Assembly: GCA_025812035.1 (NCBI GenBank) | Contig: GCA_025812035.1_4719.1 | Length of the DNA stretch: 64,000 nucleotides | DNA from: a phage | Direction: 5' to 3' (one strand) | Translations under genes and position numbers: made by a program | Notes under the pieces: generated by a model | What the model was told of the DNA's origin: nothing | The model's input: only the letters and a program-made list of their open reading frames with translations | Databases searched by the model: none | In this document: piece after piece, positions 1 through 56,140 of the stretch | Numbering within the stretch: the stretch's first letter is position 1 | How the letters are laid out: the number at the start of each line of letters is the position of its first letter

Positions 1-1665
1 TGCCCAACCGGTTTGTTCCCAGCTACCAGACAGAACACGATCGATGATTTCGTGACGAGCGACAACACGCTGAGACATCGACATATCGGTACGGTCGAAG
101 CTGTCTTCCCATGCTTCTACGGTATCCGGGTTAGTGATGTTCATCATGTACAGATCGTCCATATCGCGAATATCGTGACGGTTACCATCCTGGTGGTTGT
201 AGTGACCCAGCGGGATACGGTTACCGGTAGCGTAGACCAGCGGTTGACCGTATTGATATTTCTTGCTGAAGCAGCCCAGGGTAGTATCATCGAAGGCACG
301 GAAGAGTGCTTTGTAACCTTCAGAGACTTCCCGAACATCAGCCTCAACATTACCCGTATAGATCTTCTCAGCCGCCGGGATCATACGCAACAGCCAGCTG
401 TATTCGCCTTCTTCCGGCACGTCGATAGAAATCAGCAGGGACGGATACAGTACCTGTTGCAGGAACTTGTAAATCTGCTCATTGGTTTGAGTAGACAGAT
501 CCAGCGGTGCGGTAACTTCCGGATCCAGCACCATCGCCAGAGCACCCGGGTTATGCGGACCGATACCACGAGCAGCGTTGCTGATTAAAGACTGCGCCCA
601 TGCCATGCCGCTGTTCAGCGTAGCAATGGTACCAATCAGACCCAATACAAAAGTATTCGGTGTGAATGCGTCCAGCTCCAGCGGGTAAGCGCTGGTCATC
701 ACGTAACGCGGCTGGTATTGTACAGTCGGCGGTACCGGATAACCGTTAACCAGAACAGGACCTTGGTTGAAGGTCGGGTTCTGCGGGCTGTAGGTCAGGT
801 CGATATAGCCGGTAGTTGCGACCAGACGCTGCTGGCTATCGTAATCGCTCATCGCTTGACGGATGCGGTTAGAGATAGTTACAGTGATGTCGGAACGCAC
901 TGGGTTACCAACGATATCGCTGTCCTGCATACCGCTGGTGTTATACTGAACGCTGCTGATCGGCTGATCGCTTGCCATCATGCCCAGGTTGAACTGCGGC
1001 AGGCCCAGTTTATCACCGAGACGGATTTCGATTGCGGTTTGGATTGCGTTATCTGCAGCAGACAGCAGGGTGGTTGCCAGGTGTGCAGATTCAGCGGTGA
1101 TTTCATTGGTCACCACAGCCAGACCAGCGATACGAACAGTACCATTAGCCTTGCCACCAATAGCCGCATACATTGCCGCCATGACTTCGTTGATGAACGT
1201 GCCGTTCAGGTTATCAACCCAGGTACGCGGTACCAGAATGTTACCATGCGGACCTTGTTCTTCACGACGCGGCAGCGGAGCCAAACCGGCAACCAGCGGA
1301 AGCACATAACCGAAGAAGTGGTTATGATCACCAACTTTCGCACCACTCATAACCACCAGGGTCGGATACGGTACACTGTACTGACCAGGATCGACAGTCA
1401 CCATGATGAAGTCGTCTTTAAAGCCTTTATCTTCCAGTTCTTTTTCCATCAGACGACGGAGGTTCAGTACTTGCTCAGAACCGGTGTTACGGCTAATACG
1501 ACGACTCAGTGTACGGTTGATCGTACGCATCGTATGAGTCACTTTAGGCTGGCCAGCAAAGTCTGCAGCGGTTTCCAGCGCTTCATCTGCACGTTGTGCG
1601 GTGCGGGTTTCAGCTGCACGAATTTCTACATTATCGTTACCGTTTTTACGTACGTCTAAGCCCAT
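1..1665 (-). CDS. Abundant protein, 3' end beyond window (555 codons visible); candidate chimallin-like nuclear shell protein, alternatively major capsid protein
   Basis: Open minus-strand frame from ATG at 1665 to window edge (checked at both ends and mid-gene); RBS AAGAGGAA; preferred-codon bias; early-promoter-like motif ~70 nt upstream. Missed by ORF track (no stop in window). Confidence 0.5.
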   Translation of the reverse strand, partial: MGLDVRKNGNDNVEIRAAETRTAQRADEALETAADFAGQPKVTHTMRTINRTLSRRISRNTGSEQVLNLRRLMEKELEDKGFKDDFIMVTVDPGQYSVPYPTLVVMSGAKVGDHNHFFGYVLPLVAGLAPLPRREEQGPHGNILVPRTWVDNLNGTFINEVMAAMYAAIGGKANGTVRIAGLAVVTNEITAESAHLATTLLSAADNAIQTAIEIRLGDKLGLPQFNLGMMASDQPISSVQYNTSGMQDSDIVGNPVRSDITVTISNRIRQAMSDYDSQQRLVATTGYIDLTYSPQNPTFNQGPVLVNGYPVPPTVQYQPRYVMTSAYPLELDAFTPNTFVLGLIGTIATLNSGMAWAQSLISNAARGIGPHNPGALAMVLDPEVTAPLDLSTQTNEQIYKFLQQVLYPSLLISIDVPEEGEYSWLLRMIPAAEKIYTGNVEADVREVSEGYKALFRAFDDTTLGCFSKKYQYGQPLVYATGNRIPLGHYNHQDGNRHDIRDMDDLYMMNITNPDTVEAWEDSFDRTDMSMSQRVVARHEIIDRVLSGSWEQTGWA

Positions 1666-1727
1666 TTGGGATTCCTCTTTTCTTAAACTTTATTAAATGA
1701 CGTCATTGAATCAGCTTCTACTCGCTC

Positions 1728-1809
1728 ATTCACCTAGGTAATATAACCCTGAAATTTTTTTCAATATTGGTGTAACCGTATTGAACGATATAAACCCCTA
1801 GGTGAATGC
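1728..1809. repeat. 12-bp perfect inverted repeat ATTCACCTAGGT ... ACCTAGGTGAAT flanking promoter motif A
   Basis: Arms at 1728-1739 and 1798-1809, 58-bp spacer. Confidence 0.4.
1735..1770 (-). promoter_or_regulatory. early-promoter-like motif, copy A
   Basis: Plus strand TAGGTAATATAACCCTGAAATTTTTTTCAATATTGG; minus-sense TATATTACCTA preceded by A-tract; ~70 nt upstream of the 1665 start. Confidence 0.4.
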
Positions 1810-1919
1810 TGCCGAGAAGCAACATTCTTTCTACATATAATCAGGATATGTCTGTAAACTTTTACTTCTCTTATTGAGAGTAACATCATATCCGCTTACT
1901 ACCTTCTTACGGAGTTCGT

Positions 1920-3014
1920 ATGTTTCGTGTTTTAAATAACCTCCCGCGAACATCATCGGGTGTGCAACCCATCCCTCAGAAAGACTATCTGATACGCGAA
2001 GTTCAAAGAAACCTACAAACAATCCAGAACCACTATCAGGGTTTTACCTTCGCGGTTCAGAGTGATCACATCCTTGCGTTGCTGCTCGCACAGCTCCCTA
2101 TGAGATACGACATCTCTGTACAAACTTACTACGACATGATTCTCGATCTTACACCAGAATTGGGTAATCGTGTTAAGTTGACAACATCGAGATACGCAGG
2201 TAAGTTATTCGACGGAGCTTTCTATCCGGGATTGCATGAAGCCATCATCGCAACCGGTGAAAGCCGTCTTATTTCACGGGATGTTCTTGACAACTGGCGT
2301 AATTGGTCACCGGTTAGAATCGTGACGCACCCGTACGCAAATCTTCGTTACATTCCTCTTCACCGAAAACAGGTTGAAGAAGGACGAGGTTTCGCGGTCA
2401 TCATGGTCGATGTACCTTTATTAGCATTACAGTATCGAATGTGGTCTTTGGTCATGGGCCATAACGTCGACGGTAAATGGGTGGTTAAAGAACCGGTTAC
2501 GAGCTTCCTTGCGAGTTTTCCATTGGTTAACGCATTATACTCACACAACGATGTTGTCATACGCAACCGTTGTTTGTGGGTACCTCCGGCTAAGAATCCA
2601 CTCAAGTCGCCGATTTACGTTAACGACCTGGATAACGTATTCAGTCAAGTCGTGCTGTCCGTACAACATCATTTATTACGAAGAAGACGAAGCTACACCG
2701 ACATGCTTAAACAGATACCGAGTTTATACGGGGATCAGTACCAAGCAACCCGAATGGGCTACACCGTCGATCTTCGACAAACCCGATGGGCAAGGGATCT
2801 AGGCTGTATGTCATTATGGCAGCAGCTCGTCACACTGCAAAACGTATCTGAAAGCGTCGGGTTCAGCAGTCAAATCGATAATGATCTGTACCGCGCCGCC
2901 GACCGGAGTCTGAAAGAAGGTAGCTGGGAATCCTCTCCGTTACCCGGCGATTTGCGGCGTGAAGTTATCGCACAGGTTGCCGACCTCTTAAAAATTCTTC
3001 CTGCTGGGACATAA
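1920..3014 (+). CDS. hypothetical protein
   Basis: 364-aa ORF, GGAG RBS before ATG 1920, followed by strong hairpin 3016-3070. Confidence 0.6.
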   Translation: MFRVLNNLPRTSSGVQPIPQKDYLIREVQRNLQTIQNHYQGFTFAVQSDHILALLLAQLPMRYDISVQTYYDMILDLTPELGNRVKLTTSRYAGKLFDGAFYPGLHEAIIATGESRLISRDVLDNWRNWSPVRIVTHPYANLRYIPLHRKQVEEGRGFAVIMVDVPLLALQYRMWSLVMGHNVDGKWVVKEPVTSFLASFPLVNALYSHNDVVIRNRCLWVPPAKNPLKSPIYVNDLDNVFSQVVLSVQHHLLRRRRSYTDMLKQIPSLYGDQYQATRMGYTVDLRQTRWARDLGCMSLWQQLVTLQNVSESVGFSSQIDNDLYRAADRSLKEGSWESSPLPGDLRREVIAQVADLLKILPAGT

Positions 3015-3015
3015 T

Positions 3016-3070
3016 CACCTCATCCCTTTCCTTGCATCCTCCCAACCCGTAAAGGGAAGGGAGGATGAGG
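3016..3070. terminator. bidirectional hairpin terminator (GTAA-capped family, copy 1)
   Basis: CATCCTCCC-AA-CCC-GTAAA-GGG-AA-GGGAGGATG between convergent genes. Confidence 0.5.
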
Positions 3071-3078
3071 GTATTATG

Positions 3079-5232: not shown

Positions 5233-5293
5233 AAATCCTCCAAAAGTTATTTAGACTGTCTACATCATCTCGTATATCTGTTAAAAAAGAAGG

Positions 5294-5334
5294 ACGGCAT
5301 AAAAAGAACCGATCCAGCCGAAGCCAGATCGGTT
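5294..5334 (-). terminator. hairpin plus U-tract with TATGCCGT module
   Basis: Stem AACCGATC/GATCGGTT; minus-sense followed by CTTTTTATGCCGT. Confidence 0.5.
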
Positions 5335-5530
5335 TAAATGGATAATAACTGACAGAAAGATATCGATGATGTTCGTGAAACAAGATCTTCTCTCGTGTAC
5401 ATTGATGCCAGATCAGAGGGAGGTTGTAGCACGAGAGGTGGTTCGCCAAAGAAGGAATAAACACGCGAACCTATCTTAGTTTCACTGATGGCACTAACCA
5501 CTCAAAATATATAGTACTGTATGTAAAAGT

Positions 5531-5944
5531 TTACTGATTAATCAAGTCGTTAGCAACGATCTTGGTGTAACCTGCTTGATTGAGAATTTGATTAATTTTC
5601 GTCACGTCGGTCGCATCCTCAATAATGATGCTGGGTTTATAGATCAACGTCTTAGTAACGATGATTGTACTCTCCTTAATCCAAGGAATCCCTAAAATTA
5701 CATACTCGCCATCCGCAGTGATGACCTCAACGTAGTTGTACTTCGTCGGATCGTTCGGTACACTAGATGGGAGTCGGGAATAAATCTGTTGATGTATAGC
5801 GTCTACATCGCGGCCGTTGCGTACAGCCGTACGATAGTTGTATACGGCACTAATTTCTACTCCGTTGAAGTTAACCCCAAGTTCTGAAGCGTACACGTCA
5901 AAACTCACAACAGAGCCAATCTTTTCTAAATCAGAAGCTGGCAT
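5531..5944 (-). CDS. hypothetical protein
   Basis: 137-aa ORF, weak RBS. Confidence 0.45.
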   Translation of the reverse strand: MPASDLEKIGSVVSFDVYASELGVNFNGVEISAVYNYRTAVRNGRDVDAIHQQIYSRLPSSVPNDPTKYNYVEVITADGEYVILGIPWIKESTIIVTKTLIYKPSIIIEDATDVTKINQILNQAGYTKIVANDLINQ

Positions 5945-5959
5945 AATAGCACCCTTTAT

Positions 5960-16333: not shown

Positions 16334-16385
16334 GTCTGACCTATGTGGTATGGATGACAACGCTTTGCCTTCCGCGAGTGTAATC

Positions 16386-16416
16386 AGGAAGGTAATGTAG
16401 GTTTATTTTAATCTCC
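16386..16416 (-). promoter_or_regulatory. variant early-promoter-like motif, copy D
   Basis: AGGAAGGTAATGTAGGTTTATTTTAATCTCC in divergent intergenic region. Confidence 0.25.
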
Positions 16417-16471
16417 ATTTCGCGATGATATGACAGTCTTTATTACGTTTACCATCTGAGGGAGCATGCTC

Positions 16472-28988: not shown

Positions 28989-29041
28989 TCCCTCCTTCCC
29001 TAGCCATCAAGGCCGGGGAAGGAGGGTTTATAGTTTATTTA
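28989..29041 (+). terminator. strong rho-independent terminator after tube-candidate gene
   Basis: Stem CCCTCCTTCCC/GGGAAGGAGGG, then TTTATAGTTTATTTA; preceded by A10 run 28969-28978. Confidence 0.6.
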
Positions 29042-29578
29042 CTGTTTGTTCTTAGCTTCACGGATGAAAATGACGTCGGGATATTCTTGGGATTCAATGA
29101 ATTCAGGATTACGATAACGACGAATATGACGCATCGTCGTACATGCAAGTTTATAAAGATGTTCCTCCTCACGTTGTGTTAGTAACATCAATTGTGTATC
29201 TGGAATCACGAACGGGAGTCTTTCATTCACGTATTCTTGAAGGTTGTCGAGATCATCGTGATGAATACCCTCTGAGAGCTTATATAACGCTTCCAGCAAT
29301 TCTAATCCACCGAATTGATAACTTCCTATTGTTGTCTTAAACAATGCGCCAGAACGCGTGGTGGATGCTCTATCGGCAACATCGTATTGTTCCAACATAT
29401 ATCCGTAGACCATGCTGCGTCTATCCAACGTTTCCGTAACGAGATTACGCCACCGTTCCAGTCTTTTGAGCGCCTTGTCGATAGAGTAAACGATCATGTC
29501 ATACTCATCCAACTCTTCCGCGATACCCAATAGCTCGGTGTTGTTAGGTTTTGCTGCGCCGATAAGAAAAACACTCAT
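29039..29578 (-). CDS. hypothetical protein
   Basis: 179 aa, AAGGAG RBS, TAATG overlap with upstream gene. Confidence 0.5.
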   Translation of the reverse strand: MSVFLIGAAKPNNTELLGIAEELDEYDMIVYSIDKALKRLERWRNLVTETLDRRSMVYGYMLEQYDVADRASTTRSGALFKTTIGSYQFGGLELLEALYKLSEGIHHDDLDNLQEYVNERLPFVIPDTQLMLLTQREEEHLYKLACTTMRHIRRYRNPEFIESQEYPDVIFIREAKNKQ

Positions 29579-29991
29579 TACTCAAACTCCTTATTCCAAA
29601 ACTCGATTAACGAATCGAGCTGTTCCTTACTGGTTATCTCACCTCCTCTAACAAAATGAAATCGTTCTTGAATCGCGATCTTTTCGAGGATATCGGTAAG
29701 CAAATGACGGTGACAGAAATTTCCTGCAGGACAATAACACCCTAACACCACAACCGGATGAGAGAATAAAGCCAGCCATTCCGGTGTGTGATCAACAAAG
29801 CTTTTACGCATAAGCGCGTAATAGCCTGTGGTATATTCATCCTCGGTTAACGTTTTTGATTTGATTCCTGTAACAAGTTCCCATGATGGTGCGAAGAGCG
29901 GGTTACCTGTTTTCACCGTCGTGTCCAGTAGGAACGCTCGTGTGCCTGAAAGCCAACGATGTTTGGCTAATTGAAGGGTGTATAAAAACAC
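29578..29991 (-). CDS. hypothetical protein
   Basis: 137 aa; GTG start, weak RBS. Confidence 0.4.
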   Translation of the reverse strand: MFLYTLQLAKHRWLSGTRAFLLDTTVKTGNPLFAPSWELVTGIKSKTLTEDEYTTGYYALMRKSFVDHTPEWLALFSHPVVVLGCYCPAGNFCHRHLLTDILEKIAIQERFHFVRGGEITSKEQLDSLIEFWNKEFE

Positions 29992-30095
29992 AGCGCTAAC
30001 CCCAAAGGATAAAAATAAAACCTTGACATAACCACCACCGCAACCCCGTTACAGGGCTACGGTGGGGTCATACAGAGAGACGTGTTAGGTTATAA

Positions 30096-30575
30096 TCAGT
30101 CTTTCAGCAGCTCAGCTGCATACGCACTGATATTGTCGCGGATATGCTTAACCTGAGTTGTTGGGAAAGATTTCTTATACGCGGTGGTCAGACGTCCGTA
30201 AACCTGTTTCTTCTCGTTAGAGCCGAAACCAACTTCAGCGCTACGTTGAATTGTTGCAGACACAACGTCTTTACCCAGCGGCAGTGTAACAGAAACAACG
30301 TCAACCTGCTTGTTATCCGCCATGAACTGCGCACCAACGCGACCAACTGCCAGGCCGTGAGCCAGACCGATATCAGTGGTCAGCTTCTGCGCTTTTTCCA
30401 GGATTTCTTTTTCTTCCGGTGTTACCAGAGTACCCAGGAAATCACTGCCTAACTTCTGGCTACCGGATTCGTCCAGTTTGATACCAGCTGCGATTTTATC
30501 AGAAAGCGCCTGAACTTCCGGACGTACGTTAGAAGTGGTTTCAGTTGCTACGGTGGTTTCTACAGCTTCAGACAT
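30096..30575 (-). CDS. acidic hypothetical protein (likely early, abundant)
   Basis: 159 aa, TGGAGT RBS, preferred-codon bias; early-promoter-like motif copy B ~120 nt upstream. Confidence 0.55.
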   Translation of the reverse strand: MSEAVETTVATETTSNVRPEVQALSDKIAAGIKLDESGSQKLGSDFLGTLVTPEEKEILEKAQKLTTDIGLAHGLAVGRVGAQFMADNKQVDVVSVTLPLGKDVVSATIQRSAEVGFGSNEKKQVYGRLTTAYKKSFPTTQVKHIRDNISAYAAELLKD

Positions 30576-30694
30576 GTTAATACTCCAATTAGTTTTTTCG
30601 ATCGATCAAAAGGATAAAATCAGAAGATTCTTTCTTCATAGGGAAAACACAAGTCGGTTAAGGTTTACTTCTCAAACTCCTTGCGTTCTATCAG

Positions 30695-30730
30695 TTAGGT
30701 AATATAGACCTCAACTTTTTTCCAATAATG
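30695..30730 (-). promoter_or_regulatory. early-promoter-like motif, copy B
   Basis: TTAGGTAATATAGACCTCAACTTTTTTCCAATAATGC; lies between two minus genes, which fixes the functional strand as minus. Confidence 0.4.
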
Positions 30731-33409: not shown

Positions 33410-34120
33410 TCACCCCCTCAGAATCGCTTCTGTTTCGCTGATCGTGTCCGCGGGATAAACCAAACTACTATCGATTGCATTGTTCACGTAACCACCCATC
33501 AGGTTGGTGATGGTGTTTGTGCCGCTATCGATAATGTTTCGTAATCCGATGTCGATGGCTTTTAACGTGCTGCGTTCTTCATCTGAAAGCAGACGCCACG
33601 CCCGACGGCGATCGTTGGGGTCACGCGTGGTGATAGAAGCCAGAACAGAATAGATACTGCTATCCGCATTCAATTTAACACCGGCCAATTTCGCCGATGT
33701 GTAGAGCAGCTGATATTTTTCTTTTTCAGTATACCACCATGGCACTTTACCGAGTGTATAGATCTCGTTATACATCAGCCATGGGAAAGAGTTTCGCATC
33801 ACGACATCGGTCGACACCAACACCGTGTCACCAGGAAGAAATACGAACTCGTAAAACGGCTGACCATCCATGGTAATTTCACGGATGTCAGACGGGTCGA
33901 TATGGAGCTGGGTCAATGCGTGGCTGACACCATACTGACCATCAGGAAGAATAATCGGGCAGCACGCACAAACCCGGTTCTCACTCCCAATGATAGATAA
34001 ACCCAATCCCTCGTAACGGACGGGCGTCAGAATCGAACACCCGCCACGAGTAACAACAGATTTATCTTCTTGTATGTCCCAGTCCGCAAGCACCGCAGCA
34101 CCGTTGCGGACAAGCGCCAT
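33410..34120 (-). CDS. hypothetical protein
   Basis: 236-aa ORF. Confidence 0.5.
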   Translation of the reverse strand: MALVRNGAAVLADWDIQEDKSVVTRGGCSILTPVRYEGLGLSIIGSENRVCACCPIILPDGQYGVSHALTQLHIDPSDIREITMDGQPFYEFVFLPGDTVLVSTDVVMRNSFPWLMYNEIYTLGKVPWWYTEKEKYQLLYTSAKLAGVKLNADSSIYSVLASITTRDPNDRRRAWRLLSDEERSTLKAIDIGLRNIIDSGTNTITNLMGGYVNNAIDSSLVYPADTISETEAILRG

Positions 34121-35978: not shown

Positions 35979-38900
35979 TTATTTAGCGTCGTTAAAATAA
36001 ATATCAACAGCTCGTTCCGTTGCGTAGAGGAGACCAAGGTTCACAGTCCCAACCACTTCCGGCGAAGCGATGATACGGTTAGCGATACTGGTGCCACTGA
36101 AGATAGCATCAAGGGTGTGCCCGTCTTCGGTTTTGTTCACACCATGACCCACGGAAGAGACAACGGATTTCGCTTGTGCTGCGAAGGTACCCTTATCACC
36201 CATCCCCGCACCAAGGTCGTAACGCATGAAAATACGGATGGCGATCTGGTTCTCGCCTAACGGATTACCGTCTATTCTCACGTTACTGTTGTTGATACGC
36301 CCCGTCGTTGCTTCATTGAGTTTCAGTTCCTTGACGCGTTTAGCTCGCGCTTTATCCGCATCGCCGACGAGCGCCGCCATGGTTTCACTCATATCCTCAA
36401 TCTGAGCGCGGTACAGCACATCGATCTGTACAACTTCACCATGAACGTCAGCACGTGGGTTATACTGACTCATACGACGTAATGCTTCAACAGCTTCCTG
36501 ACTCTCATCACTCAGATCGGTTGCGATCGGTTCTTCCAGTGTTGCAAGAATCGTTCGAGGTTCAACATGATCGCCGATTTTTACGAGACCACGAATGTTG
36601 AGATGGGCGTCAACAATGAGCGTACGGCTCTTAATCGATGGTGTTACGAGACGATCGGCAAGATTGTCGAAGATATACGAACTGTCCTCGTGCGTCTCTG
36701 GAATATCCAGAATACCGACAAGAGACAGGACGCCTGCGCGCCAAACAACCTGACCTGGGTTCCACCAATCGCGTTTAAAATAAAGACGATGGAAAACCAC
36801 CACGTCCTGATCCTTAACGCGATCCCCAACTTTATAATCGGTAATGAGGTCGTGAGGATAATACTTACCTGGTCCTTTCCCGATTATCGTACCGAGTTGG
36901 AAAACCTCTTCTCCTAACTCTGGATCGTCGTATTGTACCGTAAGCGCAGTTTTGGTGACCTTCTTAACAACACCATCGCCTTGGGCAGCTGCGGCGAAGA
37001 GTTTACCGACACGATGCGCGATAACAGTCTCGCCACCCGTACGCCATGGTTGTACATCGTAACCTTCAGCAGCAATCATGCGGTTGTGTTGGATCCCGAC
37101 GAAGACCAGACGTTTTCCATCGTCACGGTCTACAGCCGGAACAGCTAACGCCGATGTACTCATTACCGATGAGATGCCGTCTGTCTTTTCATCGAATGGT
37201 CGTGTTTCACCATATACAGACACGATATTAGCATTAGGTGCCAGATAGGCAGAAATACCTACATCCCCGCTATCCTTCGTACCTTCTGATACAATACCGA
37301 CATCTGACTTATCGTATTCACGATCGCGTGCGCGGCGAAGCGATGTCTTTGAGCGACCCCCGATACCGGTCATCGTTGCTTCTTCACCCTGCTTGATATC
37401 CAGCATCGGGTTGGTTTCATCGATCACGATGGACGCGCTGTCGTCGAGAATTTGGTTCCAGACACTCACTGGACTGATTGAGATTTTCTGTCGGTTTCCT
37501 TGACTGCTGTTCTCGTTTTGACGAATAGCACCAACCAGGTCCTTATACACCAGCTCAGCGAACTTATCGTACGTTTTAAAACGTTGGTAGTTCACATCGT
37601 TCGTGTTAGGTGCCCAATCATCCAGAAGCAGTTCAACAGCACGCAGCAACAACATGGCGAAATCGGTAGGTTCTCCCATGTTCTGTAATAGCGTACGGCT
37701 TACCGGATCGACGAAAAGACGCTCCATGAGTTCAAGTTCGCGTAAATGGCGAACCTTAAGTCCAGCACCATCGACAACGTTAAAATAGATATCTCGATTG
37801 TCAAAAGCACCGCGAGCGTAACCGATGTAGTTACGGTATTCGTTAAACCCACCCATCAACAACGTCGTCATGCGATCGTCTTTACTGAAGATCAAACTTT
37901 CGTCGTCGAAGCTCACCGCGAACTCGTCTGATGCTAAACCCATACGAGAGCCACGAGGAACAGTACGATAATTCGCTTTAAGATGTTCTAATAACGGGGT
38001 AAGCCCACCCAGATAACTTAGAACAACGCCAACCGGAATACGTACGCCCATGAATTCAAGATCGGCAGCTTCGATTGGCATCTTAGCCGCATTGATGCCG
38101 AAGAAATCAGGGAACGTCCCTACAGGTGTTGGTGTTTGTCCTGACTGACAGATATAGAGCTGGTTGCGTTCATCGATCGCTAAGAATTCGCCCGACGTAT
38201 TACGCGCGAACGTCAGGAGTCCTTCGGCTAACTGTTCGTTGAACCGATCTTCCCCAATGAACTCCGGTAACGTTTTTATATCGAGACGTATATCCCAATC
38301 AGCGAATTGGATTTGGGTATAATTGCGCGCAAGCACGGCGAAGTAATACGGGACTTTGACAGCCGGATCAAAGACGTTACCACGTTTTAACGTTGTTAAG
38401 GGCGAGGACTTATCGTAATACATCGCCGTAAGTTGACGTGTTAGCCAACGACCAGCGTTATTAACGACGCGCTCTGAACGTTTAACGAACACCTTACCGT
38501 AGGCGGTACTCAACGCAACTTCGGATGACGATACCTTTCTAATAGGTTTATCAACGCGCTGTTTACGCATCCGGTACTTGATACCGTTAACAACATAAAT
38601 GCCATCCTTACGAACCTTCGGCAACATCACCGGGAACGTGGTTGGGACACCGCCTACAGGAGCCAGTTTAATCGTGATGACTTGATAATCCCCCATCACG
38701 TCAACAACATCTTCAACTTTATATCCCGTAACAGGGTAACCTGCTTGCTGTACCGCAACAACGGCAGCTGCGATGTCCTTTTGCATTACATGTTCAACGT
38801 AATGTTTATCCCACACCGCGAGCGTTGATTTACATAAGCTCTTATCAACGATAACATCCGCTTCCGGCATAACCTTTGCGGGAGCTAGTTTCGCGGCTTT

Positions 38901-40325
38901 TGGTTTAACTTCAACATATTCAGCGAGCGTTAATCCAGAACCGTCAGGTGCTTCGATTTCGTGGATGGCGTCAGCATTACGCATCGCTGCTTTATATTGG
39001 ACGCCACTTAACTGACCTGCATCCGCCAGATCGCTCGCACGCACCAACACCGCATCCGATAACGACTGAATATACTCACCATGTGTTTTTGGTAACGTTG
39101 CTGCGTCAAAGACATCAACCTTTTCTTCGGCGGTATCGTCGGGGACGACTTCGAAGAGATCGTCGGTAATGTCCTGATCTTCATCAGGTTGGAAATCCGG
39201 TTGTACTTCTACCCCAGGTACTTCACGAACATCTTCAAACGTGCGCTCTACGATTGCGTTCCACGCATCAGCATCATCGTCTTCATCCGACCCACCGACC
39301 AACTCCGCTTCTAACTCATCGGGGTCAAGAACAGTGGCCAGATCCTCACCGTTAGGAAGCACGACATCGCGATCATCGTACTCCGCATCCGGGCTGTCCG
39401 CAAGAATATCTCGCTCTTGACGAAGAACCTGTTCCTCTTCTTGTTTCTGTTCTTCTTCATTCGCGCTCTGCGACCACAGACGTGTTACCGCCATCATCCA
39501 ACGACGCTGGAAGGTTTCAAGTGTCGTTTTATCGAGTTCTTCCCCTTCCTTTACGAGCCCGGTACGCCATTCCTCCAGCAGACCGAGATTCAGCGTAAAG
39601 AAGTACACACCGTCTGTAAATACAACGTTAAGCTTATCCAGCGTGGCTCTGTCTAACGAAGCCATCGTGCTGTTCTCACGATCGGTTCCCAACCAGCGGA
39701 AGAAGTCAAAGAACGACAGCTCCTCCGGTGTGGCGAAATTCATGAGGTTGTTACGGGTCGGTGCCTGTTGCGTGGTACGCATCAACGAAATCTTCGGCAA
39801 TGTTGACGGTATACGGAACAACAAAAAGTGTTGACGATCGCTTTGCTGGGCGATTTCGTTGGCTTTCGACCAAATTGTTTTACGTACGTTGAACCACTCA
39901 TCGTACCAACGGGTGAGCGTTGGACGATAGATGTACATGTGGTTAAGATGCGCGTAGTTAGCAACGATCTGCGCGTTGATGTTTTTCTCCACCGTGCTTA
40001 GATCGGTAACCAAACGAAAACGACGATGTGATGCACGATAATCCAATTTCGCTCGTGGAAGTTGGAATCGTTGATCGCGTCGAGGTGCGCCCTGTTTGGT
40101 TGCGAGATCATCAGCAAACGAAATCCATAGTTGAGCATTTTCTTTACTCAGCATGTATTCGTTTTCTGGAGGACCTATCAATGATGGATCCGTTGCGGTG
40201 TAATGATAGACAGCATAACGCGGCAGCTGCAATAGCTGCACTAAACGTAATCTCGGTGACAATAGCTCTTGGTATCGTCTGACGCCAAACTGTCGGTAGT
40301 AATCAAGGTATTTAAGTTTTGCCAT
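35979..40325 (-). CDS. multisubunit RNA polymerase beta-like subunit
   Basis: 1448 aa; GIGGRSKTSLRRARDRE...VGIVSEGTKDSGDVGIS resembles RpoB GPGGLTRERAGFEVRD...ETPEGPNIGL; GDKGTF...EDGHTLD resembles RpoB GDKMAGRHGNKG region. Confidence 0.6.
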   Translation of the reverse strand: MAKLKYLDYYRQFGVRRYQELLSPRLRLVQLLQLPRYAVYHYTATDPSLIGPPENEYMLSKENAQLWISFADDLATKQGAPRRDQRFQLPRAKLDYRASHRRFRLVTDLSTVEKNINAQIVANYAHLNHMYIYRPTLTRWYDEWFNVRKTIWSKANEIAQQSDRQHFLLFRIPSTLPKISLMRTTQQAPTRNNLMNFATPEELSFFDFFRWLGTDRENSTMASLDRATLDKLNVVFTDGVYFFTLNLGLLEEWRTGLVKEGEELDKTTLETFQRRWMMAVTRLWSQSANEEEQKQEEEQVLRQERDILADSPDAEYDDRDVVLPNGEDLATVLDPDELEAELVGGSDEDDDADAWNAIVERTFEDVREVPGVEVQPDFQPDEDQDITDDLFEVVPDDTAEEKVDVFDAATLPKTHGEYIQSLSDAVLVRASDLADAGQLSGVQYKAAMRNADAIHEIEAPDGSGLTLAEYVEVKPKAAKLAPAKVMPEADVIVDKSLCKSTLAVWDKHYVEHVMQKDIAAAVVAVQQAGYPVTGYKVEDVVDVMGDYQVITIKLAPVGGVPTTFPVMLPKVRKDGIYVVNGIKYRMRKQRVDKPIRKVSSSEVALSTAYGKVFVKRSERVVNNAGRWLTRQLTAMYYDKSSPLTTLKRGNVFDPAVKVPYYFAVLARNYTQIQFADWDIRLDIKTLPEFIGEDRFNEQLAEGLLTFARNTSGEFLAIDERNQLYICQSGQTPTPVGTFPDFFGINAAKMPIEAADLEFMGVRIPVGVVLSYLGGLTPLLEHLKANYRTVPRGSRMGLASDEFAVSFDDESLIFSKDDRMTTLLMGGFNEYRNYIGYARGAFDNRDIYFNVVDGAGLKVRHLRELELMERLFVDPVSRTLLQNMGEPTDFAMLLLRAVELLLDDWAPNTNDVNYQRFKTYDKFAELVYKDLVGAIRQNENSSQGNRQKISISPVSVWNQILDDSASIVIDETNPMLDIKQGEEATMTGIGGRSKTSLRRARDREYDKSDVGIVSEGTKDSGDVGISAYLAPNANIVSVYGETRPFDEKTDGISSVMSTSALAVPAVDRDDGKRLVFVGIQHNRMIAAEGYDVQPWRTGGETVIAHRVGKLFAAAAQGDGVVKKVTKTALTVQYDDPELGEEVFQLGTIIGKGPGKYYPHDLITDYKVGDRVKDQDVVVFHRLYFKRDWWNPGQVVWRAGVLSLVGILDIPETHEDSSYIFDNLADRLVTPSIKSRTLIVDAHLNIRGLVKIGDHVEPRTILATLEEPIATDLSDESQEAVEALRRMSQYNPRADVHGEVVQIDVLYRAQIEDMSETMAALVGDADKARAKRVKELKLNEATTGRINNSNVRIDGNPLGENQIAIRIFMRYDLGAGMGDKGTFAAQAKSVVSSVGHGVNKTEDGHTLDAIFSGTSIANRIIASPEVVGTVNLGLLYATERAVDIYFNDAK

Positions 40326-40328
40326 GGG

Positions 40329-41975
40329 TTAGGCTCCACGAGGTCCCGTTAAGTTGCGTAATAGGAACGCAACCGTATCGTAACCAATATCGATGTTGAA
40401 TTTATTTTTACCACTTACCCAGAAAGCACGTTTCTTGTGCGAGTTGGTAATTTCGTCAATGGCTTCCATGGAATAAAGAACGTTAACCGAGACCGTATCG
40501 CCATCAAAGTCCCCACCAAGTCCGGCGAGGTACGGGGCTGGAACAATAGTCGTTTCTACGAACGAAGCATTAGGTAACCAATCTGGGTATTCCCATGCGA
40601 TAAATCGCTCATCCGTTATTGGTTCCCAGTTACTATCCAGTTCGGTTTTCGGTTTTGCTGCAACGGTCGTACGCGCATAACAGGTTAACGGAATGACGGA
40701 TTGCATACCCGATACCGGATAACGTGTTACCATCGCTGCCAGGTTATTCCAGTATTTATATCCAGCAATATAGATAAGCTCAGTATACGTAATGGGGTGA
40801 ACATCCGCCCCGGGTTTGTTAAGCATCTCTGGGGGTAATTCACTCATACCACGGAATAACCGAAACGAATCATTATTCACATAGACCAGGCAGAGATAAC
40901 GTCCATTGACCATGATAGGTTCGTTACGCACACCTGGATCGCTTAAGGTGTTCAGTAAACGTTCTATCCCATCCCATGTTGTAAAGTCATCGATGGTGTC
41001 TGGATCAAGCGTGACGCGTTCACGTTCCATCGTTTCGGTATCAATAAGTTCAACTTCTGTAACATCACGGACAAATATTTCCTGCAAAATCCCCGTACGT
41101 AACGCATGTTGCGTTACTGGGAGAGCAGCTTTACTCATCTGGTATAACCCTAACTGAACTGCAGTACAGGAAGGCTGGTTAGGCGACCCTAGTACCTCCG
41201 TTGTGGGGTTAATTGCTGAAATAACGTTACGGGTTGAGTTCCAAACACGACGTGAGCCGAACTTACCTTGGAAGATCCCTTTCTTACCTTGGAACATATC
41301 CAACAACAAAGCGTAGATGTCGTTAAATGTTCTCTGTAAGCTCCAGCGCTGACCGTCGTAAACGGGATCCGAATAATCTTTTAATCCATCCGGGACGGTG
41401 TTAGAAATTGCCAGGAAACGACGATACAACTCTGTGATTTCTTGCTCGCTTTCATACCCGCCTTCTTTTACTTCTATTTCACGTAAACCCGCAGGTAAAA
41501 CCAGTAGATGACGAGTCATCGCTTTGAACATGTTCTCTTCGACAACCTTGATTCGTAGCTCTCGTTGAGCTGAACCCGTTGAAACGAACTTGATATCAGC
41601 GACGTGTTGTGCAAAGAACCCGTATCCTGTTTGTCCTGTTAGCGCATCGGACGCAACGAAGTCACGTTGTTCAGGATCCCAACGCGCGTACGCCTTCCCC
41701 GACATGATATCACCGTAGAGGTGTTTTAGTCGAATGAGACGATCGTAGATGACAGGGTGTAGGATTTCAACTTTGCATTCAATCACCGCAAATCGACGGT
41801 CTCGATCTTCGCTACCCGCACTACCAAAGATGGTGTATGAATAGAAACCGTCATCGTGGAAATTACCGGTGCTTGGATCACGAATGCTCATGCTCGTGAT
41901 CTTGGGGAGAAAACGTAACTGCTGTTTATCGAGGTGTAAAATGCTAATATTAAACGGCTCTCTGACTTTAGCCAT
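40329..41975 (-). CDS. multisubunit RNA polymerase beta-prime-like N-terminal subunit
   Basis: Start trimmed to ATG 41975 (AAAGAGGAG RBS); RRFAVIECKVEILHPVIY resembles beta-prime RMGHIELAAPVAHIWF; GKFGSRRV...NVISAIN resembles [27 protein letters not shown] catalytic motif near C-terminus. Confidence 0.65.
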   Translation of the reverse strand: MAKVREPFNISILHLDKQQLRFLPKITSMSIRDPSTGNFHDDGFYSYTIFGSAGSEDRDRRFAVIECKVEILHPVIYDRLIRLKHLYGDIMSGKAYARWDPEQRDFVASDALTGQTGYGFFAQHVADIKFVSTGSAQRELRIKVVEENMFKAMTRHLLVLPAGLREIEVKEGGYESEQEITELYRRFLAISNTVPDGLKDYSDPVYDGQRWSLQRTFNDIYALLLDMFQGKKGIFQGKFGSRRVWNSTRNVISAINPTTEVLGSPNQPSCTAVQLGLYQMSKAALPVTQHALRTGILQEIFVRDVTEVELIDTETMERERVTLDPDTIDDFTTWDGIERLLNTLSDPGVRNEPIMVNGRYLCLVYVNNDSFRLFRGMSELPPEMLNKPGADVHPITYTELIYIAGYKYWNNLAAMVTRYPVSGMQSVIPLTCYARTTVAAKPKTELDSNWEPITDERFIAWEYPDWLPNASFVETTIVPAPYLAGLGGDFDGDTVSVNVLYSMEAIDEITNSHKKRAFWVSGKNKFNIDIGYDTVAFLLRNLTGPRGA

Positions 41976-42217
41976 GGAGACACTCCTCTTTACCACCACC
42001 GGCGGCGGTATCATCTGAACACACGAGAGACGTAATGGGTGATGGCGTCACCCATCGCTTCCTTGCTTGAGGCGAGGAAGTTATTAGGTTACGTACCTGT
42101 TTGATAAAATCAAACAGGCGATGTGTGAAGTTACGCTTCAACATTATCAATGCCGAAGGTAAACTTCGTGCATCACGTTCCAACGTAACATGGGAACGTA
42201 TCGAACTGGAGGTATAC

Positions 42218-52226: not shown

Positions 52227-52263
52227 ACGGCATAAAGCCTACCCACACAATGGTGGGTAGGCT
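52227..52263 (-). terminator. hairpin plus U-tract with TATGCCGT module
   Basis: Stem GCCTACCCAC/GTGGGTAGGC; minus-sense followed by CTTTATGCCGTATTTCTTTTTTTC. Confidence 0.55.
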
Positions 52264-52279
52264 AAGATCAACATCGATG

Positions 52280-52792
52280 TTAAACTTCTTCGTTTTCTGA
52301 ACCTAATGATTCAGCATCTGGATCGTCAACAGGAATTGTTGCATCAAAATACCGTTTCGTGTGCGTGGTTGTATATCCTACGCTATCTGTGATGGAAATC
52401 GTAAACGTGACTTCTCTCGCACGGATTAAGCGTAGTTTATTCATGAAGTTACGGAACGGCATCGATCCCCGATTCAACTCCTTAATGACGTTTCCTCGAA
52501 TACTGGAAATGTCTTTATTCGTCTTATCAGGATGTCGTTTCTTCACATCACGCATGTGTCGGGTAATATACGAATTGAGCTGATTTGCGCCGATCCCTCT
52601 CTCCGTATAAATCTGCAACAGGAACTCCGTAAGGAAATCCTGTCTACCCGTAGGCGTCCAGAAATTGTTACCGTGATTGTAGTTAGTCGCTCGTCCTCGA
52701 TTGCTTTGAGGACTTTCATCATCGTTTTCGTCGCGGCGCTTAAGCGGATTAATGCGTGCGCGAAAAGAGACTTCATTATATTTATCTATCAT
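52280..52792 (-). CDS. hypothetical protein
   Basis: Start trimmed to ATG 52792 (ATGA overlap with upstream stop). Confidence 0.45.
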   Translation of the reverse strand: MIDKYNEVSFRARINPLKRRDENDDESPQSNRGRATNYNHGNNFWTPTGRQDFLTEFLLQIYTERGIGANQLNSYITRHMRDVKKRHPDKTNKDISSIRGNVIKELNRGSMPFRNFMNKLRLIRAREVTFTISITDSVGYTTTHTKRYFDATIPVDDPDAESLGSENEEV

Positions 52793-53304
52793 AATACACC
52801 AGTGTACTGACTGAGTGCGAAGGTTAGGAGTTCGCAACAGTCTCTCGCTAGTTTCCTTGTTTTGCGTAATCCATAAGCCGCATCCAAATCGTCACGTTCC
52901 GCCAGCGCGTCTAACCACGTCGCAAGTATGCGTCCATACTCGATAACGTCACGCATGAGAACGTCGAACTGGATAACACGACCATCGGCATCAGCAAGCC
53001 AACGATTGAATGTGATTTGTGGTGCTAGTATTGCATATGTTCTCTCCTCTAATGCTATTACGTTTATGTTGCCTTCGTTATCGAACGCTTGATGCCAACG
53101 GCGAAGGTCAAGCATCAGCGACTCAGCGTCCATATACCACAACGGTAAATACGTTTTACGTGCAACGCGTATATCGTAGATGTTGTGAACCCAAGACGTT
53201 GTTTTGTAAAGCAACAAGAGTTCGTTTAACCGTTGCCTATCGTCTTGAAACGTCTTCCTTTTATACCGTTGGAATGCACGCCTCAAGAAAAAGCGATGTA
53301 ACAT
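52789..53304 (-). CDS. hypothetical protein (likely early)
   Basis: 171 aa, TAGGTGA RBS; early-promoter-like motif copy C ~90 nt upstream. Confidence 0.5.
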   Translation of the reverse strand: MLHRFFLRRAFQRYKRKTFQDDRQRLNELLLLYKTTSWVHNIYDIRVARKTYLPLWYMDAESLMLDLRRWHQAFDNEGNINVIALEERTYAILAPQITFNRWLADADGRVIQFDVLMRDVIEYGRILATWLDALAERDDLDAAYGLRKTRKLARDCCELLTFALSQYTGVL

Positions 53305-53392
53305 GGCATCACCTATGTATCATTCTTGCAGGCATCAATGAAACCATCACAAGAAGGTAACGTTTTACGTCGCCTTCATGACAGTCATCATG

Positions 53393-53425
53393 AAGGTAAT
53401 ATAGTCCTGTTATTTTTTTCAATCC
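53393..53425 (-). promoter_or_regulatory. early-promoter-like motif, copy C
   Basis: AAGGTAATATAGTCCTGTTATTTTTTTCAATCC; overlapped by 9-bp inverted repeat CCTTCATGA/TCATGAAGG (53373-53396). Confidence 0.4.
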
Positions 53426-55465: not shown

Positions 55466-56140
55466 TTAGCCCTCATCGAGGTTGTTCTGGAGATGCATCG
55501 CGGTGAGAATAACGCCAACAGCGGAAACCGATTTTGCTTTACTGTCTTCAGGGAGCTGTTCCAAGCTTACAGTACCTGTTTCTAGCAACATGCGGTTCAT
55601 TGCGTTGAACTTCTTATCATCACCACCACGAGCCTGCATCAACTCTCGGTTCACGTTCGGCATCGAGCGTCCTAACGTCGCTTGCATCTCCGGTTGACTC
55701 CAAGTAGAACCTTTACTATCACCAGTCGGCTGATTGGTGAGCTGGTCCTTGGTGTTGTTGTTTTTCGGAATCGATATTTTAGCGCTCAACGTTTCGGCTT
55801 GCCGACGATTTGGAATCAGGTACAATCTGGTTGGACGATCACGAAGCACCAATTGTCCTGTTTTCTGATCGGTGAGATAAATGCGTTGGAAGAAAGGGAA
55901 ACCGTATTTCTTACCGACTTCCAACGCACGTTTTATCGTCACCTCGTTTTTGTTCATATTGGGTACCCAGATGGGTAGAATCTCTTTCTTATCCCGACAT
56001 AAACGCATATAAGCATCAAACGTCTCATCATCGATTTCAGCGAAACGTTTTTTGTAAATAGCGTATGTCGGGCTCGATTCTCCCACCAGGTCTTTGATGT
56101 ACCCGAGAATGAATTTTTCTGCTGCAGCGCGGTTGGACAT
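55466..56140 (-). CDS. hypothetical protein
   Basis: 224-aa ORF. Confidence 0.5.
   Translation of the reverse strand: MSNRAAAEKFILGYIKDLVGESSPTYAIYKKRFAEIDDETFDAYMRLCRDKKEILPIWVPNMNKNEVTIKRALEVGKKYGFPFFQRIYLTDQKTGQLVLRDRPTRLYLIPNRRQAETLSAKISIPKNNNTKDQLTNQPTGDSKGSTWSQPEMQATLGRSMPNVNRELMQARGGDDKKFNAMNRMLLETGTVSLEQLPEDSKAKSVSAVGVILTAMHLQNNLDEG

What the first reader, a model, noticed from the sequence alone, without database searches (positions are those of the whole stretch)
1735..1770. Conserved ~36-bp promoter-like motif in four intergenic regions (AGGTAATATA...TTTTTT...CAAT)
Copies at 1735-1770, 30695-30730 and 53393-53425 are near-identical; 16386-16416 is a variant. Copy B lies between two minus-strand genes, so the sense form is A-tract ... 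TATATTACCT, 60-120 nt upstream of minus-strand starts. This resembles the AT-rich TATATTAC-type early promoters reported for phiKZ-like phages (recalled, not verified here).
Basis: partly seen in the sequence, partly recalled or inferred. Interest (0 to 1): 0.7.

Follow-up and report, generated by a model that had tools for sequence, protein, structure and literature searches.

The report
Early promoters of a Goslar-like jumbo phage
The repeated motif is real and is almost certainly the early-gene promoter read by the RNA polymerase that this nucleus-forming jumbo phage carries in its virion; one copy sits in front of the phage-nucleus shell gene, but this class of promoter is already known from phiKZ and its relatives.

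Summary
The window is a roughly 94%-identical relative of E. coli jumbo phage Goslar (Chimalliviridae). Copies A (1730-1767), B (30691-30728) and C (53388-53425) are real. All three are on the minus strand, in non-coding DNA, 72-123 nt upstream of minus-strand gene starts. Their sense form is ATTGRAAAAAA-N8-10-TATATTACCT-N3-TGA.

Two weight matrices that never saw these copies rank them as the top three hits in the window. One was trained on nine Goslar sites outside the window region. The other was trained on six or seven phiKZ sites. Both score all three copies above all or nearly all random controls.

Copy D (16384-16421, core TACATTAC) is a weak variant and remains inconclusive.

Copy A precedes the nuclear shell gene chmA. 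The same architecture sits upstream of chmA in phiKZ, PhiPA3, Ea35-70, Eowyn, Noxifer, RP12 and Proteus phage 10. Published consensus sequences for phiKZ, 201phi2-1, OBP, N1M2 and EL match it.

Transcription start sites and timing were not testable here.

This is a new member of a known kind, of modest interest.

The parts
1730..1767 (-). Promoter copy A. Sense sequence: ATATTGAAAAAAATTTCAGGGT TATATTAC CTAGGTGA. Core at 1738-1745; conserved GTGA at 1730-1733 (inferred TSS region). It lies 72 nt upstream of the chmA ATG at 1665.
   Evidence: Goslar-trained PWM 31.5 bits; phiKZ-trained PWM 33.8, or 29.3 with the phiKZ chmA site left out. Invariant in four Goslar-like genomes.
30691..30728 (-). 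Promoter copy B. Sense sequence: TTATTGGAAAAAAGTTGAGGTC TATATTAC CTAACTGA. Core at 30699-30706. It lies 123 nt upstream of the ATG at 30575 (Goslar gp214 homolog).
   Evidence: PWM scores 22.5 and 25.2 / 18.2. Motif identical in Goslar.
53388..53425 (-). Promoter copy C. Sense sequence: GGATTGAAAAAAATAACAGGAC TATATTAC CTTCATGA. Core at 53396-53403. It lies 91 nt upstream of the ATG at 53304 (Goslar gp200 homolog) and is divergent from the + strand gene 53439-54068.
   Evidence: PWM scores 21.7 and 19.1 / 17.2. One mismatch to Goslar, at the distal position 53424.
16384..16421 (-). Copy D, a weak variant. Sense sequence: GAAATGGAGATTAAAATAAACC TACATTAC CTTCCTGA. Core at 16392-16399. It lies about 58 nt upstream of the Goslar gp225 homolog. 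It lacks the TTTCA element and the G-anchored A-tract.
   Evidence: 8.7 bits, E about 0.009 in non-coding DNA and 0.16 window-wide. Flanks do not match phiKZ. One look-alike in Goslar at 151619-151656, upstream of RNAP subunit gp165.
1..1665 (-). 5' part of chmA (nuclear shell protein chimallin, Goslar gp246 homolog), the first gene downstream of copy A. It runs off the window. In Goslar and eight other genera the next gene is an RNA polymerase subunit (annotated nvRNAP beta' where specified).
29039..30575 (-). Inferred transcription unit of copy B: three genes at 30096-30575, 29578-29991 (DUF488-N3a domain) and 29039-29578, homologs of Goslar gp214-216.
52237..53304 (-). Inferred transcription unit of copy C: genes 52789-53304 and 52280-52837 (gp200/201 homologs). 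It ends at a GC-rich hairpin at 52237-52262 that is followed by TTTATGCCGT.
35979..42014 (-). Two RNA polymerase beta-family genes, homologs of the Goslar virion RNAP subunits gp207 and gp205. These encode part of the enzyme inferred to read the motif. The second gene is intron-less here.
   Evidence: PHROG 3148 and 2986. Goslar vRNAP subunit list from virion mass spectrometry. Intron absence.
55466..56140 (-). Homolog of virion RNAP subunit gp196.
   Evidence: PHROG 3233 'RNA polymerase beta subunit'.
33410..34120 (-). Homolog of Goslar gp210, the fifth vRNAP subunit, which is not beta/beta'-like. Whether it is a promoter-specificity factor is speculation.
   Evidence: PHROG 2926. No relative with a solved structure.

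Best explanation
Copies A, B and C are early promoters recognised by the phage's own virion-packaged multisubunit RNA polymerase (vRNAP). Copy D probably is too, in weaker form.

Shown: the motif has three blocks on the minus (sense) strand. There is an A/T-rich block (here ATTGRAAAAAA), a TTTCA-like element, and the core TATATTAC. A conserved YT-N3-TGA follows the core.

Inferred from relatives with mapped 5' ends: the core lies around -10, and transcription starts in or next to the conserved (G)TGA, about 5-8 nt past the core.

Inferred: the vRNAP is injected with the DNA into the early infection vesicle. It would start at these sites without the host polymerase and make leftward early transcripts.

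- A drives chmA (phage-nucleus shell), most likely together with the downstream nvRNAP beta' gene.
- B drives the gp214-216 homologs.
- C drives the gp200-201 homologs, up to a hairpin at about 52237-52262.
- D drives the gp225-227 homologs.
For: 1. Identity of the phage: the window is a 93.8-94.3% identical, colinear relative of Goslar.
2. Independent matrices: A, B and C are the top three window hits for two PWMs that never saw them.
   - Nine Goslar sites outside the window region give 31.5, 22.5 and 21.7 bits, with a null maximum of 17.4.
   - Six phiKZ sites, with the phiKZ chmA site left out, give 29.3, 18.2 and 17.2 bits, with a null maximum of 16.7.
3. Genome-wide placement in Goslar: there are 12 strong sites, all on the minus strand.
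   - Eleven of the 12 cores fall in the 7.1% of the genome that is non-coding.
   - All 12 lie 31-211 nt upstream of a minus-strand ATG.
4. Unbiased word enrichment: TATATTA and ATATTAC are the most enriched oriented 7-mers upstream of Goslar genes, found in 10-11 regions against 0.6-0.9 expected.
5. Conservation upstream of chmA: the same architecture lies 70-137 nt upstream of chmA in phiKZ, PhiPA3, Ea35-70, Eowyn, Noxifer, RP12 and Proteus phage 10. The Goslar-type and phiKZ chmA promoters agree at 24 of 28 positions, although the proteins share only about 25% identity.
6. Literature:
   - phiKZ early promoter is TATATTAC, and the extended consensus strings of 201phi2-1, OBP, N1M2 and EL resemble it (PMC7058600).
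   - These AT-rich motifs are centred near -10 and are attributed to the vRNAP (PMC7598289).
   - PHIKZ054 (chmA) has the early motif with a primary TSS (PMC8244752).
   - In 201phi2-1 the motif lies about 10 bp upstream of cappable-seq TSSs (PMC11512511).
   - Goslar chmA is transcribed by 5 min after infection.
7. The enzyme is encoded here: the window carries RNAP beta-family genes homologous to Goslar vRNAP subunits.
8. Sequence conservation: one mismatch in the 152 motif positions between window and Goslar, against 6% divergence overall.
Against: - No RNA data exist for this phage, so TSS position and early timing are inferred from relatives.
- The only Goslar statement found is ambiguous: the 'TSS sequence' of chmA starts 91 nt upstream of the ATG. 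If -91 were the actual start, it would lie 11 nt upstream of TATATTAC and contradict a -10 placement.
- Conservation between window and Goslar is weak evidence, because non-coding DNA is 96% identical overall.
- Only 12-14 such sites exist in Goslar, yet 175 of 249 genes are reported as expressed at 5 min. These promoters therefore cannot be the whole early programme unless transcripts are very long.
- D is weak and its flanks do not resemble phiKZ sites.
Confidence: 0.87

Rival explanations
1. They are host sigma-70 promoters: TTGAAA acts as -35, TATATT as -10, and E. coli RNA polymerase uses them immediately after injection.
For: TATATT is a 5/6 match to TATAAT, and A and C contain TTGAAA upstream. 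On the opposite (+) strand of copy C, a 10/12 sigma-70-like match overlaps the motif.
Against: - The TTGAAA-to-TATATT spacing is 13 nt, not 16-18.
- The consensus scan finds no sigma-70-type site on the sense strand at A, B, C or D, and total matches are at or below shuffle expectation.
- Nine of the 12 Goslar sites have no TTGAAA.
- The conserved C at core position 8 and the downstream TGA have no role in a sigma-70 promoter.
- phiKZ-type infection is independent of host RNAP.
Confidence: 0.04
2. They are promoters for the second, non-virion phage polymerase (middle or late class) rather than for the virion enzyme.
For: Timing was not measured here. In phiKZ the chmA gene also has a secondary, middle-class TSS.
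Against: - Published middle motifs (TACT centred at -22 after an A-rich repeat) and late motifs (T-3 A T G+1) are different sequences.
- The TATATTAC class is specifically early in phiKZ.
- nvRNAP subunits must themselves be made first, and copy A precedes one of them.
Confidence: 0.05
3. The motif is the binding site of a phage regulator or DNA-organising protein placed next to promoters, not the polymerase recognition element itself.
For: No protein-DNA data exist. How vRNAP recognises DNA is unknown, and no relative with a solved structure was found.
Against: In relatives the motif sits at a fixed short distance upstream of mapped TSSs and behaves as the early promoter consensus. Its strict orientation with the downstream gene fits a promoter better than an operator.
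Confidence: 0.03
4. The copies are chance similarity or non-functional remnants of duplicated intergenic DNA.
For: The bare 10-mer is not significantly enriched in the window. One TATATTAC also lies inside a coding region at 52563-52570.
Against: - Extended-motif scores exceed all random controls.
- All sites are intergenic and co-oriented with the downstream gene.
- The architecture is conserved across genera.
- The coding-region TATATTAC has no flanking match.
Confidence: 0.01

Closest known systems
phiKZ early promoters (28-32 sites, AT-rich consensus with core TATATTAC, read by the virion RNAP)
   Same: - Identical 8-nt core.
- The same upstream A/T-rich block and TTTnA element.
- The same spacing to a downstream TGA: core + 5 nt in both phages.
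- Placement before chmA at -80 in both phages.
- Both genomes encode a vRNAP.
   Different: - Host and genus differ (E. coli Goslarvirus versus Pseudomonas Phikzvirus).
- Most Goslar sites use TTTCACGRC and YTNNGTGA where phiKZ has TTTAAACAG and TAAnTTGA.
- Four strong Goslar sites use TACATTAC.
- Only about 12 strong sites against about 30 in phiKZ.
- No experimental mapping exists for this lineage.
Predicted or mapped early promoters of 201phi2-1, OBP, N1M2 and EL (consensus strings in PMC7058600; cappable-seq in PMC11512511)
   Same: The N1M2/OBP pattern AWWWWW-TTTCARR-N3-ATATTA-N-YWAA-GTG matches copy A in content and spacing (GAAAAAAA-TTTCAGG-GTT-ATATTAC-CTAG-GTG). 201phi2-1 shares TATATTAC-N4-GTG.
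   Different: N1M2, OBP and EL end the core in T (ATATTAT) rather than C. These are different genera and hosts.
Bacterial sigma-70 (extended -10) promoters
   Same: An AT-rich TATAAT-like hexamer near -10 and an A/T-rich upstream region.
   Different: No -35 at a workable spacing. The conserved C and the downstream TGA have no sigma-70 counterpart.
AR9 (Bacillus jumbo phage) vRNAP early promoters
   Same: The same strategy: a conserved AT-rich element near -10 upstream of early operons, read by an injected multisubunit RNAP.
   Different: A different consensus, a uracil-containing genome, and AR9 is not a chimallivirus.

Membership tests
Chimalliviridae (phiKZ-like) vRNAP early promoter | Conserved AT-rich core TATATTAC, or a one-base variant | tested here: met
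   Exact in A, B and C. D has TACATTAC, the variant also found in four strong Goslar sites.
Chimalliviridae (phiKZ-like) vRNAP early promoter | Flanking architecture shared with experimentally defined phiKZ sites: A/T-rich block, TTTnA about 10 nt upstream of the core, TGA 5 nt downstream | tested here: met
   phiKZ-trained PWM scores of 29.3, 18.2 and 17.2 bits against a null maximum of 16.7. Flank-only contributions are 15.1, 4.0 and 3.0 bits for A, B and C. Not met for D (-18.4 bits flank-only).
Chimalliviridae (phiKZ-like) vRNAP early promoter | Located in non-coding DNA upstream of, and co-oriented with, the first gene of an operon, and absent from coding DNA | tested here: met
   All four window sites meet this, as do 12 of 12 strong Goslar sites (one of those cores falls inside a 62-aa annotated ORF).
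Chimalliviridae (phiKZ-like) vRNAP early promoter | The genome encodes a virion-packaged multisubunit RNA polymerase | tested here: met
   PHROG RNAP beta families at 35979-40325, 40329-42014 and 55466-56140. These are 94%-identical homologs of Goslar subunits detected in virions by mass spectrometry. Packaging itself is taken from the literature.
Chimalliviridae (phiKZ-like) vRNAP early promoter | Core centred near -10 relative to a mapped primary transcription start | not testable with these tools
   No 5'-end data for this phage. The Goslar legend ('TSS sequence' begins at -91) is ambiguous. The feature is supported only in phiKZ and 201phi2-1.
Chimalliviridae (phiKZ-like) vRNAP early promoter | Downstream genes transcribed immediately after infection, independently of host RNAP | not testable with these tools
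   Goslar chmA is transcribed at 5 min. The per-gene RNA-seq table is not held. Nothing is known for the B, C and D units.
Chimalliviridae (phiKZ-like) vRNAP early promoter | Specific initiation by purified vRNAP in vitro | not testable with these tools
   Biochemical experiment.
Bacterial sigma-70 promoter | -35 and -10 hexamers separated by 16-18 nt | tested here: not met
   No sense-strand match at any copy. The TTGAAA-to-TATATT spacing is 13 nt.
Intrinsic terminator | GC-rich hairpin followed by a T-run | tested here: not met
   No terminator-like site overlaps any copy. The T-run on the + strand is not preceded by a hairpin.
phiKZ-type middle and late (nvRNAP) promoters | Middle: TACT centred at -22 after an A-rich repeat. 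Late: T-3 A T G+1. | tested here: not met
   Neither pattern is part of the conserved columns of the copies.
Known structured RNA or tRNA | Match to an Rfam model or a tRNA | tested here: not met
   No Rfam family at gathering score and no tRNA in the window.

The most novel reading that the evidence does not exclude
A, B, C and Goslar site 43259 are the copies with the G-anchored A-tract. A, B and C are among the Goslar sites that best fit the phiKZ consensus. They may form a distinct, ancestral 'immediate-early' tier of vRNAP promoters.

The chmA promoter is its best example. It agrees with phiKZ at 24 of 28 positions, while the ChmA proteins share only about 25% identity. That would make promoter recognition by the virion polymerase one of the most conserved features of the family. 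It would also make this sequence a portable early promoter across chimalliviruses of different hosts.
Probability: 0.3. Interest if true: 0.45.

Novelty: new member of a known kind. Interest (0 to 1): 0.3.

Why it matters
- It gives a concrete early-promoter consensus for the Goslar lineage, the E. coli model for nucleus-forming phages: W-rich, TTTCACGRC or A-tract-TTTCA, TAYATTAC, YTNNRTGA. No promoter map for this lineage was found in the searchable literature.
- It marks which transcription units the injected polymerase most likely starts first. These include chmA and the adjacent nvRNAP subunit gene, which is the first step of the vRNAP-to-nvRNAP cascade.
- It supplies candidate parts for engineering, such as early expression cassettes of the kind already used in phiKZ transposon donors.
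- The near base-for-base conservation of the chmA promoter across genera is a useful constraint. How a sigma-less vRNAP recognises DNA is still unknown structurally.
- It does not reveal a new mechanism.

Tried and rejected
- Pfam on the RNAP subunit genes and on the genes downstream of the promoters found nothing, apart from DUF488-N3a in 29578-29991. PHROGs was needed to identify the RNAP genes.
- A sequence search of solved structures with the gp210 and gp207 homologs gave no hits.
- Ceyssens et al. 2014 is not held. Supplementary TSS and RNA-seq tables of three papers are not held. Exact TSS offsets and per-gene early expression could therefore not be checked.
- The search for related loci with ChmA returned only Goslar and two contigs with 97-98% identical ChmA proteins. 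No intermediate-distance relatives were available for footprinting.
- My gapped pattern GAAAAAAN{7,9}TATATTACCT used too narrow a gap and caught only B. The PWM tests replace it.
- Folding the predicted 5' leaders gave 5'-proximal hairpins but unremarkable z-scores of -1.5 to -2.05.
- The 12-nt inverted repeat around copy A (1727-1738 / 1797-1808) was considered as an operator or a divergent promoter. I rejected it as a conserved feature because its distal arm differs in all three other Goslar-like genomes.
- Sigma-70 and terminator readings were rejected.

Full report
**What the window is.** Megablast places window 1-6000 on Escherichia phage Goslar (NC_048170) at 93.9% identity. A whole-window alignment is colinear with Goslar 171234-237291 at 93.8-94.3% identity. 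Goslar is a nucleus-forming jumbo phage (Chimalliviridae). Comparison with two metagenomic Goslar-like contigs shows that the window is a fourth, distinct genome of this lineage.

**Observation.** On the minus strand they read as follows:

| Copy | Upstream part | Core | Downstream |
|---|---|---|---|
| A | ATATTGAAAAAAATTTCAGGGT | TATATTAC | CTAGGTGA |
| B | TTATTGGAAAAAAGTTGAGGTC | TATATTAC | CTAACTGA |
| C | GGATTGAAAAAAATAACAGGAC | TATATTAC | CTTCATGA |
| D | GAAATGGAGATTAAAATAAACC | TACATTAC | CTTCCTGA |

A, B and C are about 80% identical over 36 nt, not near-identical. D shares only the core region and the downstream TGA. The bare 10-mer is not significantly enriched (5 matches at up to 1 mismatch against 2.9 expected), so the test has to use the extended motif.

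**Independent statistical tests.** I fetched the whole Goslar genome and found a genome-wide family of 12 strong sites plus D.

- A weight matrix built only from the nine Goslar sites outside the window-homologous region scores A, B and C at 31.5, 22.5 and 21.7 bits. These are the three best positions in the window. The maximum in 200 random windows was 17.4 (mean 4.3).
- D is fourth at 8.7 bits. A score that high is expected about 0.009 times in the window's 3.7 kb of non-coding DNA and about 0.16 times window-wide.
- No other position in the window reaches 5 bits, and all four sites are non-coding and on the minus strand.

**Placement.** Goslar is 92.9% coding.

- Eleven of the 12 strong cores lie in annotated non-coding DNA. 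The twelfth lies in a 62-aa annotated ORF.
- All 12 are on the minus strand, 31-211 nt upstream of the start of a minus-strand gene.
- An unbiased count of oriented 7-mers in the 131 non-coding upstream regions puts TATATTA and ATATTAC first, in 10-11 regions against 0.6-0.9 expected.
- In the window, the cores lie 72 (A), 123 (B), 91 (C) and 58 nt (D) upstream of their genes.

**What lies downstream.**

- Copy A precedes chmA, the nuclear shell protein chimallin (Goslar gp246). The next gene downstream of chmA encodes an RNA polymerase subunit. This chmA-RNAP synteny recurs in phiKZ, PhiPA3, Eowyn, Ea35-70, Noxifer, RP12, LucasX and Proteus phage 10.
- B precedes three small genes (gp214-216 homologs), one with a DUF488-N3a domain.
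- C precedes two genes (gp200/201 homologs) that end at a GC-rich hairpin at 52237-52262.
- D precedes the gp225-227 homologs.

**Comparison with relatives, done on sequence rather than from memory.** Reading the DNA upstream of chmA in other genera shows the same architecture 70-137 nt from the ATG:

| Phage | Sequence upstream of chmA |
|---|---|
| phiKZ | AATGAAAAAAATTTGAGATT TATATTAC TAAATTGA (core at -80, as in Goslar) |
| PhiPA3 | CATTGAAAAAAATCTCACATC TATATCAC |
| Ea35-70 | TTCAAAAAAATTACAAGTC TATATTAC GTATGTG |
| Eowyn | TATATTAC TTAGGTGA |
| Noxifer | TATATCAC |
| RP12 | ACATATTAC |
| Proteus phage 10 | CCAAAAATTTACATCCC TATATTAC TAAGGTG |

- The Goslar-type and phiKZ chmA promoters agree at 24 of 28 positions. 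The ChmA proteins share only about 25% identity.
- In the first 50 kb of phiKZ, all seven TATATTAC occurrences are intergenic, on the + strand, and just upstream of genes.
- A matrix trained on these seven scores window A, B and C at 33.8, 25.2 and 19.1 bits, with the next hit at 5.0.
- With the phiKZ chmA site left out, the scores are 29.3, 18.2 and 17.2 bits against a null maximum of 16.7. The flanks alone contribute 15.1, 4.0 and 3.0 bits.
- D's flanks score -18.4 bits, so D is not supported by this test.

**Literature.**

- PMC7058600 tabulates the phiKZ promoter as TATATTAC. It also gives consensus strings for 201phi2-1 (TTTRARR-BTATATTACDWHDGTG), OBP and N1M2 (AWWWWWTTTCARRYAKATATTATYWAAGTG) and EL. 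Copy A matches the N1M2/OBP string in content and spacing.
- The review PMC7598289 states that every RNAP-encoding jumbo phage has such a motif upstream of presumed early operons. The motif is AT-rich, centred near -10, and attributed to the virion RNAP.
- dRNA-seq of phiKZ found the early motif in 32 promoters, including a primary TSS for PHIKZ054 (chmA).
- Cappable-seq of 201phi2-1 places the motif about 10 bp upstream of TSSs.
- For Goslar itself I found no published promoter motif. RNA-seq shows early transcription of chmA at 5 min from the infection vesicle.
- The Goslar vRNAP subunits are gp78, gp196, gp205, gp207 and gp210. The window encodes homologs of four of them.

**Mechanism.**

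- Shown: a three-block, strictly oriented, intergenic motif that matches the experimentally defined early promoters of relatives, in a genome that encodes the corresponding polymerase.
- Inferred: the core sits near -10, and transcription begins in or beside the conserved (G)TGA 5-8 nt downstream. The injected vRNAP initiates there without host RNAP, producing the first phage transcripts, including those for the nuclear shell and an nvRNAP subunit.
- Not shown: TSS positions, timing for the B, C and D units, and the protein contacts. No relative of the vRNAP subunits has a solved structure.

**Caveats.**

- The Goslar paper's legend says the chmA 'TSS sequence' begins 91 nt upstream of the ATG. 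If that nucleotide were the true start, it would lie 11 nt upstream of TATATTAC and conflict with the model. The same '91' is given for the next gene, and there it equals the whole intergenic spacer. I therefore read it as the start of a displayed sequence, but the figure is not available to me.
- Conservation between window and Goslar is one mismatch in 152 motif positions, with promoter A and its leader invariant in four genomes. This is only modest evidence, because non-coding DNA is 96% identical overall.
- Twelve to fourteen sites cannot by themselves explain 175 genes detected at 5 min.

**Rivals.**

- Sigma-70: the spacing is wrong and there is no consensus hit on the sense strand.
- nvRNAP middle or late promoter: the published motifs are different sequences.
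- Regulator binding site: not excluded, but less economical.
- Chance: excluded by the tests above.
- Known RNA family or tRNA: none found.

**Verdict.** These are vRNAP early promoters of a Goslar-like chimallivirus, a new member of a known kind. Interest is modest. The most notable detail is how closely the chmA promoter is conserved across genera.

Noticed in passing
window 40326-40509 (junction); Goslar 211745-213798: The window lacks a 2.05-kb insertion present in Goslar. That insertion is a group I intron plus an HNH/NUMOD endonuclease gene (gp206), and it splits a virion RNAP subunit gene. Here the gene is one uninterrupted 561-aa ORF (40329-42014, minus strand) that covers the PHROG 2986 profile end to end. 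The Goslar gp205 annotation is only 502 aa.
   Followed up: partly
window minus strand, TTTATGC starting at 5303, 9352, 31606, 51089 and 52236; about 20 intergenic sites in Goslar: A second recurrent intergenic element: a GC-rich hairpin immediately followed by TTTATGC(C/T)G, co-oriented with genes. TTTATGC is the next most enriched upstream 7-mer after the early-promoter core (12 regions against 1.4 expected). It could be a conserved terminator, or a terminator joined to a phiKZ-like late start (T-3 A T G+1).
   Followed up: partly
window 1727-1738 and 1797-1808: A perfect 12-nt inverted repeat, CATTCACCTAGG / CCTAGGTGAATG, brackets promoter A. The proximal arm is the promoter's own start region. 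The distal arm carries two substitutions in Goslar and in both metagenomic relatives, so the long repeat is specific to this genome. Upstream of the distal arm, the + strand reads TATAAACC-CTAGGTGA, a degenerate mirror of the promoter that faces gene 1920-3014.
   Followed up: partly
Goslar 151619-151656 (L005 1619-1656), outside the window: The only Goslar sequence resembling copy D is GCAGTGGAGATATATTAACACC TACATAAC CTAAGGGA. It lies 95 nt upstream of gp165, which is annotated as an RNA polymerase beta subunit. D and this site share TGGAGAT and ACC-TACATWAC-CT, suggesting a small variant promoter class.
   Followed up: no
window 30589-30639, minus strand: The 117-nt leader downstream of promoter B contains a 16-codon ORF (MKKESSDFILLIDRKN) without an obvious ribosome-binding site. 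The leader is almost fully conserved with Goslar (one mismatch). It may be chance.
   Followed up: no
window 29578-29991, minus strand: The second gene of the unit downstream of promoter B carries a DUF488-N3a domain (Pfam PF22751, E = 1.5e-9). It is an uncharacterised domain in what is probably an early gene.
   Followed up: no
Goslar 49717-49754 (L002): One strong promoter copy lies inside the annotated 62-aa ORF gp047 (49584-49772). That ORF may be a mis-annotation, or the promoter may be internal to it.
   Followed up: no
window 53378-53405, + strand: A sigma-70-like match (ATGACA-16-TATAGT, 10/12) overlaps promoter C on the opposite strand and faces gene 53439-54068. The number of such matches in the region is at chance level.
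   Followed up: yes
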